A stretch of 64,000 bases of DNA from a virus (taxonomy: Duplodnaviria > Heunggongvirae > Uroviricota > Caudoviricetes). Of the stretch, positions 3,001 to 6,000 are shown in pieces. A program made the position numbers. The stretch lies in the IMG/VR virus record IMGVR_UViG_2880378312_000006; one strand, written 5' to 3'. Every line of letters begins with the position of its first letter. Within the stretch, counting starts at the first letter, position 1.

Positions 3001-6000
3001 GGGATGCAGGTGAGTGAGAAGCCGTCGGTGGTGAGGGTGCGGTTTGGTGACGGTTATGAACAGCGCCGCCCCACAGGGCTGAATCCTCAACTGAAGACGT
3101 TTCAGGCGGTGTTCCGGGTGACGGATGAGTCAACCCGGCGCTGGCTGGATGAATTTTTATCCTGGCATGGTGGTTACCGTGCCTTTTTGTGGCGACCGCC
3201 GAAACATAACCGGACGGTGAGGGTTGTGTGCCGGGAGTGGAGCGTCACGGATAACGCCCGGTACAGTGATTTCAGCTGTACGATTGAGCAGGTGGTGAAC
3301 TGATGCAGGACATTCATGAAGAAAGTCTGAACGAGTCGGTTAAATCAGAGCAGTCACCGCGGGTGGTGCTCTGGGAAATTGACCTGACGGTGCAGGGCGG
3401 TGAGCGGTATTTTTTCTGTAATGAGCTGAATGAAAAAGGGGAGGCGGTCACCTGGCAGGGGCGGGAATATCAGGCATACCCGATTGACGGCAGCGGTTTT
3501 GAGATGAACGGGAAGGGCAGCAGTGCCCGCCCGTCGCTGACGGTGTCGAATCTGTTCGGTCTGGTCACCGGAATGGCGGAGGACCTGCAGAGCCTGGTGG
3601 GGGCCACGGTGGTCCGCCGCCGGGTGTATGCCCGTTTTCTGGATGCGGTGAATTTTGTGGCGGGCAATCCGGAAGCGGACCCGGAGCAGGAGCTGAGAGA
3701 CCGCTGGGTGGTGGAGCAGATGTCAGAGCTGACGGCCATGACAGCCTCGTTTGTGCTGGCCACACCGACCGAGACGGACGGGGCGCTGTTTCCCGGTCGC
3801 ATTATGCTGGCGAACACCTGTATGTGGGATTACCGGGGAGATGAATGCGGGTATAACGGTCCTGCGGTGGCGGATGAGTTCGATAAACCCACCACGGATA
3901 TCCGTAAGGACAGATGCAGCAAGTGCATGCGCGGGTGTGAGATGCGCGGCATGGTGGCTAATTTTGGCGGTTTCCTTTCCATTAATAAACTTTCGCAGTA
4001 AATCCCGGTTTATGACACAGACTGAATCAGCGATTCTGGCGCATGCCCGGCGGTGTGCGCCTGCGGAGTCGTGCGGCTTCGTGATAAGCACGCCGGAGGG
4101 GGAGTGGTATATCCCTTGTGTGAATATTTCCGCAGAGCCGGAGGCGTATTTTCGTATTGCACCGGAAGACTGGCTGCGGGCAGAGATGCAGGGGGAGATT
4201 GTGGCACTGGTCCACAGCCATCCCGGTGGCCTGCCCTGGCTGAGCGAGGCCGACCGGCGGCTGCAGATAAAAAGTGCACTGTCCTGGTGGCTGGTCTGCC
4301 GGGGGGAAATTCATAAATTCCGCTGTGTGCCACATCTGACAGGACGGCGCTTTGAGCACGGGGTGACGGACTGTTACACGCTGTTCCGGGATGCTTATCA
4401 TCTGGCGGGGACTGATATGCCGGATTTTGAGCGTGAGGATGACTGGTGGCGCAATGGTCAGAACCTGTACCTGGACAATATGGAGGCGACTGGTTTTTAC
4501 AGGATTTCCCTGCCTTCCGCACAGCCTGGCGATATCCTGCTGTGCTGCTTTGGCGCATCGGTGGCCAATCATGCCGCCATATACTGCGGCAACGGTGAAC
4601 TGCTTCACCATCTGCCTGAACAACTGAGTAAACGGGAGAGGTATTCCGAAAAATGGCAACGACGAACGCATTCAGCCTGGCGTCACCGCCACTGGCACGT
4701 ATCTGCCTTCACGGGGATTTACAACGATTTGGCCGCCGCCTCAGCCTGTATGTGAACACGGCAGCGGAAGCCATCCGGGCGCTGTCGTTACAGGTGCCGG
4801 GCTTTCGCCGTCAGATGAACGAAGGCTGGTACCAGATACGTATTGCCGGTTATGACACGGCACCGGAGGCGGTGTACGCCCGTCTTCACGAACAGCTGGG
4901 TGAGGGAACGGTCATCCATATTGTGCCGCGACTGGCCGGGGCCGGAAAGGGTGGACTGCAGATTGTGCTGGGGGCGGCAGCCATCGTGGGCTCTTTCTTC
5001 ACTGCCGGGGCATCAATGGCGTTATGGGGTTCAGCCCTGGCAGCCGGTGGTTTTTCTGCCACCACGATGCTGTTTTCACTTGGAGCCAGCATGATTCTGG
5101 GCGGTGTGGCCCAGATGCTGGCCCCGAAGGCAAAAACACCGGATTACCGCGCAACGGATAACGGCAGACAGAACACGTACTTTTCCTCGCTGGATAACAT
5201 GATTGCCCAGGGGAACCCGATGCCGGTGCCTTACGGGGAAATGCTGGTTGGCTCCCGCCGTATATCCCAGGACATCAGCACCCGTGATGAAGGCGGGGGC
5301 GGAACGGTCGTGGTTGTCGGGCGACAGGGATAAAACATAAAAAAATCCCGCAGTGATCGCGGAGCTGCGGGGACAGACAAATGAAGATCAATGTTAAGGA
5401 GTTGTTTTTGTTACTCGGGCAAAAAAACACTAACGCAGCGAAATTATAAGCGCCACAGTCAGTGTGTGAAAATGTGAAGATATTCAGAATTTTTATGCCA
5501 TTACCGGTTTTAACCAACAGGATTATCGGTGGGCATGAAAGAAAACCCCGGTATCTGCTGATACCGGGGTTTCTCTTTAGCATGGCAGAAATGTGTTTCA
5601 TGCTTTTCGGGCGAAGGATATCCGACTTCTGTACGGAATGGCAAGTGGCGGTTAATTTATTCAGGGGAAGGCTGTATGGGAAAAGGTGGCGGTAAGGCAC
5701 ACACGCCTCGTGAGGCGAAGGATAATCTCAAATCCACGCAGATGATGAGTGTGATTGATGCGATTGGTGAGGGACCGATAGAAGGTCCGGTGAAGGGACT
5801 GCAGAGTATTCTGGTGAACAAAACCCCACTGACGGACACGGACGGCAATCCCGTGATACACGGTGTGACCGCGGTCTGGCGTGCCGGGGAGCAGGAGCAG
5901 ACACCACCGGAAGGCTTTGAGTCCTCCGGAGCTGAAACCGGACTGGGCGTGGAAGTGACGAAGGCAAAACCGGTGACGCGCACCATTACGTCCGCGAACA

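What the first reader, a model, noticed from the sequence alone, without database searches (positions are those of the whole stretch)
3303..5333. About 2-kb near-identical direct repeat (L-K-I) shared by the two prophages
Tail genes L, K and I of prophage A (3303-5333) and prophage B (62287 to the window end) are about 98 percent identical at protein level and roughly 95 percent by eye at DNA level, in the same orientation and about 59 kb apart. The neighbouring M and tape measure genes are clearly more divergent, so the identity block has sharp edges, the signature of modular exchange. The repeats are a substrate for RecA-mediated deletion of the whole intervening region.
Basis: seen in the sequence. 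Interest (0 to 1): 0.5.

Follow-up and report, generated by a model that had tools for sequence, protein, structure and literature searches.

The report
Shared tail-tip genes of neighbouring prophages
Two neighbouring defective lambda-like prophages in an E. coli O157:H7 chromosome carry about 94%-identical copies of the tail-tip genes L, K and I; the repeat is real, but it is an ordinary and already well-documented feature of this pathogen's prophage clusters.

Summary
The repeat is real. Window 3284-5016 matches 62268-64000 without gaps at 93.8% identity, in direct orientation, 58,984 bp apart. Copy B is cut by the window end, so the claimed right edge (5333) cannot be checked in the window.

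The window is 100% identical to E. coli O157:H7 strain 113. There the homology continues through J, lom and the tail fibres to about 12241, a tract of about 9 kb. Only the left edge, at the M/L border, is sharp.

Modular exchange is well supported:
- Copy A is itself a chimera. It is ynfA-side "Sp12-type" up to 4527-4673 and ompW-site nleA "Sp9-type" from 4315.
- The exchange interval contains the longest exact A/B run (146 bp).
- A third prophage, at ompW in the same genome, is 100% identical to A over 849-4673.
- In TW14359 the same nleA arm is joined to a B-type left arm, with the crossover in J.

Deletion between A and B is plausible, but this block is a weak substrate. A 6.2-kb lysis-region repeat (96.8%, exact runs up to 1348 bp), partly outside the window, is much better. 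A repeat overlapping an anti-repressor gene mediated the published 47.7-kb deletion between two adjacent O157:H7 prophages.

Verdict: already known, low interest.

The parts
3284..5016 (+). Repeat copy A, the part that has a partner inside the window. In the source genome the homology continues to 5499.
   Evidence: ungapped 1733 bp, 93.8% identity to 62268-64000
62268..64000 (+). Repeat copy B, cut off by the window end
   Evidence: The continuation in NZ_CP028680.1 is seen.
2962..3303 (+). Gene M of prophage A (A-type tail shaft module). It is not part of the repeat except for its last 19 bp.
   Evidence: Pfam Phage_min_tail; 43% aa identity to M of prophage B
3303..4001 (+). Gene L, copy A (minor tail protein L)
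   Evidence: Pfam Phage_tail_L, E = 1e-91; 97.8% aa identity to copy B; mismatches by codon position 3/3/31
4012..4755 (+). Gene K, copy A (JAB/MPN + NlpC/P60 tail-tip protein)
   Evidence: Pfam Prok-JAB + NLPC_P60; 92.7% aa identity to copy B; mismatches by codon position 11/10/35
4752..5333 (+). Gene I, copy A (tail assembly protein I)
   Evidence: Pfam Lambda_tail_I; 95.9% aa identity to the full I of prophage B in the source genome
61958..62287 (+). Gene M of prophage B (B-type tail shaft module)
   Evidence: Pfam Phage_min_tail; RefSeq protein WP_000847298.1
62287..62985 (+). Gene L, copy B
   Evidence: Pfam Phage_tail_L; protein WP_001151105.1, the same protein as in the ydfJ-site prophage of GTVSS-023 and the nleA prophage of TW14359
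62996..63739 (+). Gene K, copy B
   Evidence: Pfam Prok-JAB + NLPC_P60
63736..64000 (+). Gene I, copy B; only the first 88 codons are in the window
   Evidence: annotation of the source genome
4315..4673 (+). Exchange interval inside K where copy A switches parent. It is Sp12-type (= prophage C) to the left and Sp9-type nleA prophage to the right. The interval contains the 146-bp exact A/B run 4528-4673.
   Evidence: The last A-vs-Sp9-orthologue difference is at 4314. The first A-vs-C difference is at 4674. C matches A at 88 consecutive informative sites up to 4527 and then matches B.
5677..12241 (+). Continuation of the homologous tail-tip tract in prophage A: J (frameshifted), lom, tail-fibre N and C genes, first nleG-like gene. 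Its partner in prophage B lies beyond the window end.
   Evidence: 85.2% (5677-9805) and 90.6% (9940-12241) to the B continuation; annotation
24916..25041 (+). Phage-borne ompW 3'-end fragment at the hybrid att junction between prophage A's right arm and prophage B's integrase end. The core ends near 24950.
   Evidence: identical to the native attR arm up to ...ggatatcgataccac, then a divergent ompW-like 3' end. The same junction occurs in 81 genomes, including the TW14359 tandem at ompW.
25087..28176 (-). ompW-type int, xis and the 3' part of exo at prophage B's left end. This piece derives from a third ompW-integrating phage ('x'); the native ydfJ-site prophage sequence begins at about 28177.
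   Evidence: Window 24923-27527 (the ompW-like 3' fragment, int, xis and the 3' part of exo) is 97.3% identical to the resident ompW prophage's ompW 3' end + int module; 27528-28176 has no match there. B is 99.2% identical to the GTVSS-023 ydfJ-site prophage only from 28177 on.
41318..47537 (+). B copy of a second, better direct repeat (late-regulatory/lysis/antirepressor region). Its A copy lies 11.6-17.8 kb to the left of the window start.
   Evidence: 96.8% over 6.2 kb; exact runs of 1348, 880, 651 and 619 bp; spacing 59.1 kb

Best explanation
The repeat is the 5' end of a tail-tip module about 9 kb long (L, K, I, J, lom, tail fibres). This module is common to most lambda-like prophages of E. 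coli O157:H7. Here it is present in two adjacent, same-orientation defective prophages of the ynfA-ydfJ prophage cluster.

The sharp left edge is a mosaic junction. Two unrelated tail-shaft modules (A-type and B-type tape measure and M) are each fused to the same type of tip module, at the M/L gene border.

The copies are not a recent duplication of each other. They are diverged paralogues (94%, differences mostly synonymous) that keep being reshuffled by homologous recombination with other resident prophages.

Shown:
- Copy A is chimeric. It is Sp12-type up to 4527-4673 and Sp9-type (nleA prophage) from 4315.
- It has a 100%-identical inverted twin over 849-4673 in the ompW-site prophage C of the same genome.
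- The nleA right arm, the att junction and a foreign ompW-type int now lie next to the ydfJ-site prophage B.

Inferred:
- The exchanges arose by crossovers in K (or in J in another lineage), in the tape measure gene and in exo, between prophages on opposite sides of the terminus.
- Those crossovers were combined with tandem or site-specific integration at an ompW-type att site.
- As a direct repeat, the block can in principle support deletion of the 59-kb interval. Such deletions are expected to use the much longer near-identical lysis-region repeat instead.
For: - Repeat geometry and identity.
- Gene identity.
- Ubiquity: the block matches in 4,334 of 5,426 complete E. coli genomes, with up to 18 places per genome and 13 in some O157 strains, e.g. 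strain 7409.
- Source genome and context.
- The Sakai-like layout (nleA prophage alone at ompW; B orthologue and an A-type-head prophage adjacent between ydfJ and ynfA) is seen.
- Chimerism of copy A: differences from the nleA orthologue are confined to positions left of 4315, with none from 4315 to 5499. There are 0 mismatches to the Sp12-type prophage over about 1978-3665.
- Prophage C switches from A-like to B-like exactly across the 146-bp exact run.
- A and C are identical over 849-4673 in strain 113 itself.
- An independent crossover in J is seen in TW14359.
- Hybrid att junction.
- Third-codon-position bias of mismatches (L 3/3/31, K 11/10/35) shows both copies evolved under purifying selection.
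- Literature: prophage-repeat-mediated inversions and a 47.7-kb inter-prophage deletion (PMC7430833); large rearrangements at prophage repeats (PMC8743559); tandem PPompW and recombination with PPydfJ (PMC8112680).
Against: - The exact sequence of events (two inversions, excision and re-insertion, or prophage-in-prophage integration) is not resolved. Nakamura et al. explain many ydfJ clusters by site-specific integration into prophage-borne attB sites rather than by homologous exchange.
- The 'Sp12-type' assignment of 3666-4527 rests on identity to prophage C, because the Sp12-like prophage of GTVSS-023 has this stretch deleted.
- The Sp9/Sp11/Sp12 names are my mapping from gene content and adjacency, not a direct comparison with the Sakai record.
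- No deletion product of this particular repeat pair was observed.
Confidence: 0.85

Rival explanations
1. One reading: the L-K-I direct repeat is the operative substrate for RecA-mediated deletion of the whole 59-kb interval between the prophages.
For: - The orientation is direct, with an offset of 58,984 bp.
- Exact runs of 146, 94, 89 and 80 bp exceed the roughly 74-bp inflection quoted in PMC7430833.
- The interval's annotation lists only prophage, effector and IS genes.
- Inter-prophage deletions are documented between adjacent O157:H7 prophages (PMC7430833, which also cites Chen et al. 2013 for Sp11-Sp12).
Against: - Identity is only 93.8%, with a mismatch about every 16 bp.
- The same prophage pair shares a 6.2-kb direct repeat at 96.8%, with exact runs of 1348, 880, 651 and 619 bp at almost the same spacing.
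- The published 47.7-kb deletion used an 822-bp exact repeat overlapping an anti-repressor gene, not the tail genes.
- The three smaller lineage genomes examined (strain 115, M7638, 21B8) keep the A-to-att spacing intact.
Confidence: 0.2
2. The two copies are similar because one was recently copied onto the other, by gene conversion or duplication between prophages A and B themselves.
For: There are patches of 100% identity (146 bp at 4528) among windows of 80-90% identity. At 35 of the 51 sites where copy A differs from its nleA orthologue, A agrees with B.
Against: - Overall identity is only 94%.
- The sequence that makes A differ from its orthologue is 100% identical to prophage C and to the Sp12-type prophage, not to B.
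- B's copy is 98-100% identical (per 200-bp window) to the TW14359 nleA prophage, and its L protein is identical to that of the GTVSS-023 ydfJ-site prophage. So B's copy is an old, conserved type.
Confidence: 0.05
3. The A/B adjacency, and hence the direct repeat, arose purely by site-specific integration: tandem or prophage-in-prophage integration at a prophage-borne att site as described by Nakamura et al. 2021, without homologous exchange in the tail genes.
For: The junction between A's right arm and B's int lies exactly at an ompW-type att core. The same junction exists as a true tandem at ompW in TW14359. PMC8112680 describes ydfJ clusters built this way.
Against: - Integration alone does not explain why copy A switches parent inside K.
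- It does not explain why B switches from an ompW-type int module to the native ydfJ-site prophage inside exo, at about 27.5-28.2 kb.
- It does not explain why the ompW-site prophage C carries the complementary arms.
Confidence: 0.15
4. The repeat is an assembly artefact, for example collapsed or mis-joined prophage repeats.
For: O157:H7 prophage regions are notoriously hard to assemble.
Against: The window is identical (0 mismatches over 64 kb) to a complete genome. Its diagnostic junctions recur at 99.9-100% identity in dozens of independently assembled complete genomes.
Confidence: 0.01

Closest known systems
47.7-kb inter-prophage deletion between adjacent prophages Phi804-9 and Phi804-10 in O157:H7 farm isolates (Stanton et al. 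2020, PMC7430833), and the spontaneous Sp11-Sp12 deletions in Sakai that this paper cites (Chen et al. 2013, AEM; not held, so not read)
   Same: Two adjacent, same-orientation lambdoid prophages of O157:H7. Their primer names, ECs_2180 and ECs_2272, suggest to me the Sp11-Sp12 region, but the paper's table does not state that mapping in the passages read. They share many direct repeats, and recombination between a repeat pair removes about one prophage length.
   Different: The published deletion used an 822-bp exact repeat overlapping an anti-repressor gene, not the L-K-I tail genes. In the window's lineage the left-hand prophage also carries the nleA effector arm transplanted from the ompW-site prophage. 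No deletion is observed here.
Large chromosomal rearrangements between homologous prophage regions in O157:H7 (Iguchi et al. 2006, cited in PMC8743559; Fitzgerald et al. 2021, PMC8743559)
   Same: Homologous prophage modules act as crossover sites. The A/C pair found here (3.8 kb exact within 19.7 kb at 99.1%, inverted, about 375 kb apart, with trp and mar genes in the interval) is exactly the class of repeat they map at rearrangement boundaries.
   Different: Their criterion is at least 5 kb at 98% or more, in inverted orientation. The A/B repeat of the finding is direct, 94% and shorter, so it would not have been counted.
[quoted passage not shown] 2021, PMC8112680)
   Same: There is an ompW-type att fragment and int next to an nleA-type effector locus. 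These lie either in tandem at ompW (TW14359) or inside the ydfJ cluster (the window's lineage). Prophage B carries nleG variants at its far end.
   Different: That paper focuses on att sites and effector loci. It does not describe the crossover in tail gene K, or the L-K-I repeat as such, in the sections I read.
Bacteriophage lambda tail-tip genes M-L-K-I-J, and the modular (mosaic) organisation of lambdoid phage genomes (textbook knowledge, from memory)
   Same: The gene order, the Pfam families and the tight or overlapping gene junctions match. The mosaic boundary falls at a gene border.
   Different: These are defective prophage copies (J of prophage A is frameshifted). They are not lambda itself, and two different shaft modules precede the same type of tip module.

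Membership tests
Lambda-type tail-tip assembly module (gpM-gpL-gpK-gpI upstream of gpJ) | Gene order M, L, K, I immediately after the tape measure gene and before J, with tight or overlapping junctions | tested here: met
   The ORF coordinates are 2962-3303, 3303-4001, 4012-4755 and 4752-5333, followed by J at 5676. The same order occurs at 61958-64000.
Lambda-type tail-tip assembly module (gpM-gpL-gpK-gpI upstream of gpJ) | Family-specific protein domains | tested here: met
   The Pfam hits are Phage_min_tail, Phage_tail_L (E = 1e-91), Prok-JAB + NLPC_P60, and Lambda_tail_I. All are above their curated cut-offs.
Dispersed direct repeat able to support homologous (RecA-type) deletion | Same orientation on one replicon | tested here: met
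   Both copies are on the + strand, offset 58,984 bp.
Dispersed direct repeat able to support homologous (RecA-type) deletion | Uninterrupted identity longer than the efficient-recombination threshold (about 74 bp as quoted in PMC7430833) | tested here: met
   There are exact runs of 146, 94, 89 and 80 bp. The lysis-region repeat of the same prophage pair has runs of 1348, 880, 651 and 619 bp.
Dispersed direct repeat able to support homologous (RecA-type) deletion | Near-identity overall (98% or more over kilobases, the criterion used for rearrangement-prone prophage repeats in PMC8743559) | tested here: not met
   Identity is 93.8% over 1733 bp, and 85-92% over the full 9-kb tract.
Dispersed direct repeat able to support homologous (RecA-type) deletion | Intervening DNA is dispensable | tested here: met
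   The RefSeq annotation of the interval lists only prophage, T3SS-effector and IS genes. Dispensability is inferred, not measured.
Dispersed direct repeat able to support homologous (RecA-type) deletion | Deletion product with a junction inside the repeat is observed | not tested
   No systematic search was possible with the tools. Three smaller lineage genomes keep the A-to-att spacing. The published deletion between adjacent O157:H7 prophages used another repeat.
Mosaic module junction of lambdoid phages | Abrupt change of identity at or near a gene border | tested here: met
   Identity rises from about 55-65% to 94-100% within about 20 bp at 3284, in the last codons of M. The supposed right edge at 5333 is not such a junction.
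Mosaic module junction of lambdoid phages | The same module is found joined to different neighbours in related genomes | tested here: met
   The nleA right arm lies behind an Sp9-type left arm (GTVSS-023), an Sp12-type left arm (the window) and a B-type left arm (TW14359). The crossovers are in K or in J.
Tandem / clustered PPompW-type prophage array (Nakamura et al. 2021) | Hybrid att junction made of a prophage right arm, the ompW att core and a phage-borne ompW 3' end, followed by an ompW-type integrase | tested here: met
   This is shown by the alignment. The module (ompW-like 3' fragment, int, xis, 3' part of exo; window 24923-27527) is 97.3% identical to the resident ompW prophage's module. 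The junction occurs in 81 genomes.

The most novel reading that the evidence does not exclude
The window may capture one product of a reciprocal arm swap between two prophages on opposite sides of the terminus region: the ompW-site nleA prophage and the ynfA-side prophage. The crossovers would lie in the tape measure gene and in K. A roughly 2-3.8-kb tract (about 849/2000 to 4314/4673) would have been converted to the same parent in both products, and that tract differs in length between sister strains (F8092B versus strain 113). If so, the tail-tip module is a repeatedly used, still active exchange point that moves a whole effector locus (nleA, nleG, espM1) between chromosomal sites. The M/L border and the 146-bp run in K would behave as preferred crossover sites.
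Probability: 0.3. Interest if true: 0.3.

Novelty: already known. Interest (0 to 1): 0.15.

Why it matters
Inter-prophage homology is the main driver of structural variation in E. coli O157:H7. It produces inversions, deletions, duplications and chimeric prophages, which affects PFGE and optical-map typing, genome assembly and the effector gene repertoire.

This window is a clean worked example. It shows at nucleotide resolution that the tail-tip module is a place where prophage arms carrying type III effector loci are exchanged. It also shows that the obvious in-window repeat is not the most recombinogenic one.

It adds no new principle. Its practical value is as a caution: repeats seen in a 64-kb window can be truncated by the window end. 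The best recombination partners here (the lysis-region repeat and the inverted twin at ompW) lie partly or wholly outside it.

Tried and rejected
1. First idea: the 51 differences between copy A and its nleA orthologue (3285-4314) are a gene-conversion patch copied from copy B. Rejected. A still differs from B at about 66 sites in that stretch, whereas it is 100% identical to prophage C and to the Sp12-type prophage.
2. Working model that prophage B is a hybrid of a new ompW phage (heads) with a ydfJ-site phage (right arm). Rejected: B from 28177 on is the native ydfJ-site prophage (99.2%). Only its int-xis-exo end is foreign.
3. Idea that strain 113 and F8092B differ by an inversion between A and C. 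Not supported. The two assemblies are reverse complements of each other with the same local order.
4. Idea that window 4315-28176 is one circularly permuted piece of the resident nleA phage running through a regenerated attP. Rejected. The int module is only 97.3% identical to the resident one, and the resident int protein (WP_000113674.1) is the orthologue of the GTVSS-023 one.
5. A chimeric query (unique left flank of A plus unique right flank of B) to find natural deletion products was planned but not run. Such products would be indistinguishable from an ordinary single prophage at ydfJ, and one-row-per-record output cannot enumerate them.
6. Chen et al. 2013 (PMC3592242) could not be read because it is not held.
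7. RNA, structure-prediction and protein-database tools were not used. The genes are well-known families and the question is about DNA repeats.
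Full report

A BLASTN of the window against itself gives one dominant off-diagonal hit. Window 3284-5016 matches 62268-64000 over 1733 bp with no gaps and 107 mismatches (93.8% identity), on the same strand, 58,984 bp apart.

- The second copy ends at base 64000 only because the window ends there. The stretch 5017-5333 of the finding therefore has no partner in the window.
- In register, 50-bp windows rise from 0.2-0.56 identity upstream to 0.96 at 3300. The first fully matching decamers begin at 3290, with BLAST starting the match at 3284, which is 19 bp before the ATG of L.
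- The longest exact runs are 146 bp (4528-4673), 94, 89 and 80 bp.
- Pfam confirms the gene names on both copies: M (Phage_min_tail), L (Phage_tail_L), K (Prok-JAB + NLPC_P60) and I (Lambda_tail_I).
- Protein identities are L 97.8%, K 92.7% and I 95.9%, against M 43% and tape measure 21%.
- Mismatches are concentrated at third codon positions (L 3/3/31, K 11/10/35), so both copies have been under purifying selection.

The identity figures need correcting, and the right edge is not confirmed.

**2. Source and true extent**

The window is identical (0 mismatches over 64,000 bp) to the E. coli O157:H7-type strain 113 chromosome, NZ_CP028680.1 positions 2,548,257-2,612,256.

Reading past the window end in that genome, A/B homology continues as follows:
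- to 5499 at 92.1%;
- it collapses across the I-J spacer;
- it resumes at 5677-9805 (85.2%; J and lom);
- it resumes again at 9940-12241 (90.6%; tail-fibre genes and the first nleG-like gene).

The "2-kb block with sharp edges" is thus the start of a tail-tip tract of about 9 kb with variable identity. Only its left edge is a true module boundary.

The block is ubiquitous. It matches in 4,334 of 5,426 complete E. coli genomes, with up to 18 places per genome and 13 in some O157 strains, e.g. strain 7409.

**3. Genomic context**

In strain 113 the order is as follows:
- ynfA;
- prophage A: degenerate int, early genes, HK97-like heads, A-type shaft, L-K-I, frameshifted J, lom, fibres;
- then the effector locus with nleA, nleG and espM1;
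- a 126-bp ompW 3' fragment;
- prophage B: int, xis, exo, early genes, lambda-like heads, B-type shaft, L-K-I-J, fibres, three nleG genes, dinI;
- ydfJ', then ydfI and onward to mar.

The Sakai-like strain GTVSS-023 is arranged differently. There the nleA prophage sits alone at ompW and ends ompW'-yciE-trp. Between ydfJ and ynfA lie the orthologue of B and a second prophage with A-type heads. That second prophage has M identical to A's M, a truncated L, and K and I deleted.

From gene content and adjacency I call these Sp9-, Sp11- and Sp12-like. This naming is my inference. The published Sakai coordinates show Sp11 and Sp12 abutting (PMC7430833).

**4. Copy A is itself a recombinant**

- Against the nleA orthologue, copy A differs at 51 sites confined to 3285-4314 and at none from 4315 to 5499.
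- Against the Sp12-like prophage it has 0 mismatches over about 1978-3665, where that prophage's deletion begins.
- The shaft genes further left are also Sp12-type: 0-14 mismatches per 500 bp, against 22-63 for the Sp9 type.
- A third prophage, C, sits at ompW in the same lineage (F8092B; strain 113 itself). At sites that distinguish A from B, C matches A at 88 consecutive sites up to 4527, then matches B from 4674 on.

So copy A equals the C/Sp12 type to the left and the Sp9 type to the right. The exchange point lies within 4315-4673 of gene K, an interval that includes the 146-bp exact run.

In strain 113, A and C are 100% identical over 849-4673 (3,825 bp), within 19.7 kb at 99.1% identity. 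They are in inverted orientation and about 375 kb apart. In F8092B the Sp12-type tract of C begins only at about 1500-2000. Homogenisation therefore differs between sister strains.

**5. The other junctions**

- The sequence left of the ompW-like fragment is identical to the native right arm of the nleA prophage, up to an att core (...ggatatcgataccac). To the right comes a divergent phage-borne ompW 3' end, then int.
- Window 24923-27527 (the ompW-like 3' fragment, int, xis and the 3' part of exo) is 97.3% identical to the resident ompW prophage's module, so it is related but not the same copy. The resident int protein is the orthologue of the GTVSS-023 one.
- B becomes the native ydfJ-site prophage (99.2%) only from 28177, inside exo.
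- The junction occurs in 81 genomes. In TW14359 it is part of a true tandem at ompW: nleA prophage, att, a phage "x", native ompW', yciE.
- In TW14359 the nleA right arm is preceded by a B-type tape measure, M, L, K, I and 5' J. It switches to A-type between about 6491 and 7210, next to a 620-bp deletion in J.

The same effector-bearing arm has therefore been joined to three different left arms, at different points of the 9-kb tract.

**6. Mechanism**

The most economical reading is this. Lambdoid prophages of O157:H7 share a tail-tip module, and homologous crossovers within it (and within other shared modules) reshuffle prophage arms. Tandem or site-specific integration at ompW-type att sites adds further combinations.

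The chimeric structures and junction coordinates are shown directly. The order of events is inferred and not resolved: two inversions across the terminus, excision and re-insertion, or prophage-in-prophage integration.

Nakamura et al. [quoted passage not shown]

**7. The deletion prediction**

The prediction is reasonable in kind. Stanton et al. 2020 documented a 47.7-kb deletion between two adjacent O157:H7 prophages, bounded by an 822-bp direct repeat overlapping an anti-repressor gene. Their primers were ECs_2180 and ECs_2272. They cite spontaneous Sp11-Sp12 deletions in Sakai.

For this prophage pair, however, the L-K-I block is the weaker substrate. The late-regulatory/lysis/antirepressor region forms a 6.2-kb direct repeat at 96.8% identity, with exact runs of 1348, 880, 651 and 619 bp and a 59.1-kb spacing.

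Fitzgerald et al. 2021 map rearrangement boundaries to prophage repeats of at least 5 kb at 98% or more. They leave open whether RecA or phage recombinases act.

I found no deletion product of the A/B pair. Three smaller lineage genomes keep the A-to-att spacing. A systematic search was not possible.

**8. Verdict**

This is a real repeat, correctly located on its left side. It is truncated by the window on its right, and it is part of a larger homologous tract.

The modular-exchange interpretation is right and is now backed by explicit crossover coordinates. The deletion-substrate interpretation is plausible but overstated for this block.

All of this belongs to a well-described class of phenomena in O157:H7, so the finding is already known and of low interest. 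The nucleotide-level reconstruction of the arm exchange is a modest addition.

Noticed in passing
window 41318-47537 (B copy); the A copy lies 11.6-17.8 kb left of the window start (L007/L001): A second direct repeat between the same two prophages covers the late-regulatory, lysis and antirepressor region. It is 6.2 kb at 96.8% identity, with exact runs of 1348, 880, 651 and 619 bp. It is a much better recombination substrate than L-K-I, and an anti-repressor-gene repeat was used in the published 47.7-kb deletion between adjacent O157:H7 prophages.
   Followed up: yes
strain 113 record 2,913,047-2,963,184 (L013, L006); F8092B L004: A third prophage (C) sits at ompW, inverted relative to A and about 375 kb away. 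It is 100% identical to A over window positions 849-4673 and 99.1% identical over 19.7 kb. This is a strong substrate for inversion of the ~375-kb segment between them (which includes trp and mar genes). The identity tract is shorter in sister strain F8092B.
   Followed up: partly
window 24916-25041, with int at 25087-26217 (-): There is an ompW 3'-end fragment and an ompW-type integrase in the middle of the ydfJ cluster. It is a hybrid att junction, identical to the tandem junction at ompW in TW14359, and is present in 81 complete genomes.
   Followed up: yes
window 15490/15491: A 1,674-bp deletion relative to GTVSS-023 and TW14359 removes nleH1-2 and the 5' part of nleF. Only a 111-bp 'type III effector' remnant is left, at 15492-15602.
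   Followed up: partly
window 5676-9148: Gene J of prophage A is frameshifted into two ORFs (5676-6851 and 6728-9148), so prophage A is defective. In GTVSS-023 the orthologous J carries an IS1203 insertion instead, and in TW14359 it has an internal deletion of about 620 bp.
   Followed up: partly
L009 22220-22582 (GTVSS-023): The Sp12-like prophage of the Sakai-like strain has lost the 3' half of L and all of K and I. This is a deletion within the same tail-tip block.
   Followed up: no
records NZ_CP028674.1 (strain 115), NZ_CP040313.1 (M7638), NZ_CP040309.1 (21B8): These lineage members are about 51-59 kb smaller than their siblings and show two fewer L-K matches. In strain 115 a loss of about 57.3 kb lies somewhere upstream of prophage A. 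This could be another prophage loss or inter-prophage deletion.
   Followed up: no
window 14279-14420 and 16284-16425: There is a short direct repeat (142 bp, 76.8% identity) inside the effector island.
   Followed up: no
L001/L007 positions corresponding to window -8500 to -2500: The head genes of A and C are identical to each other but differ by about 5-10% from both the Sp9-like and Sp12-like prophages of GTVSS-023, which are identical to each other there. This suggests a lineage-specific replacement of the head module.
   Followed up: no
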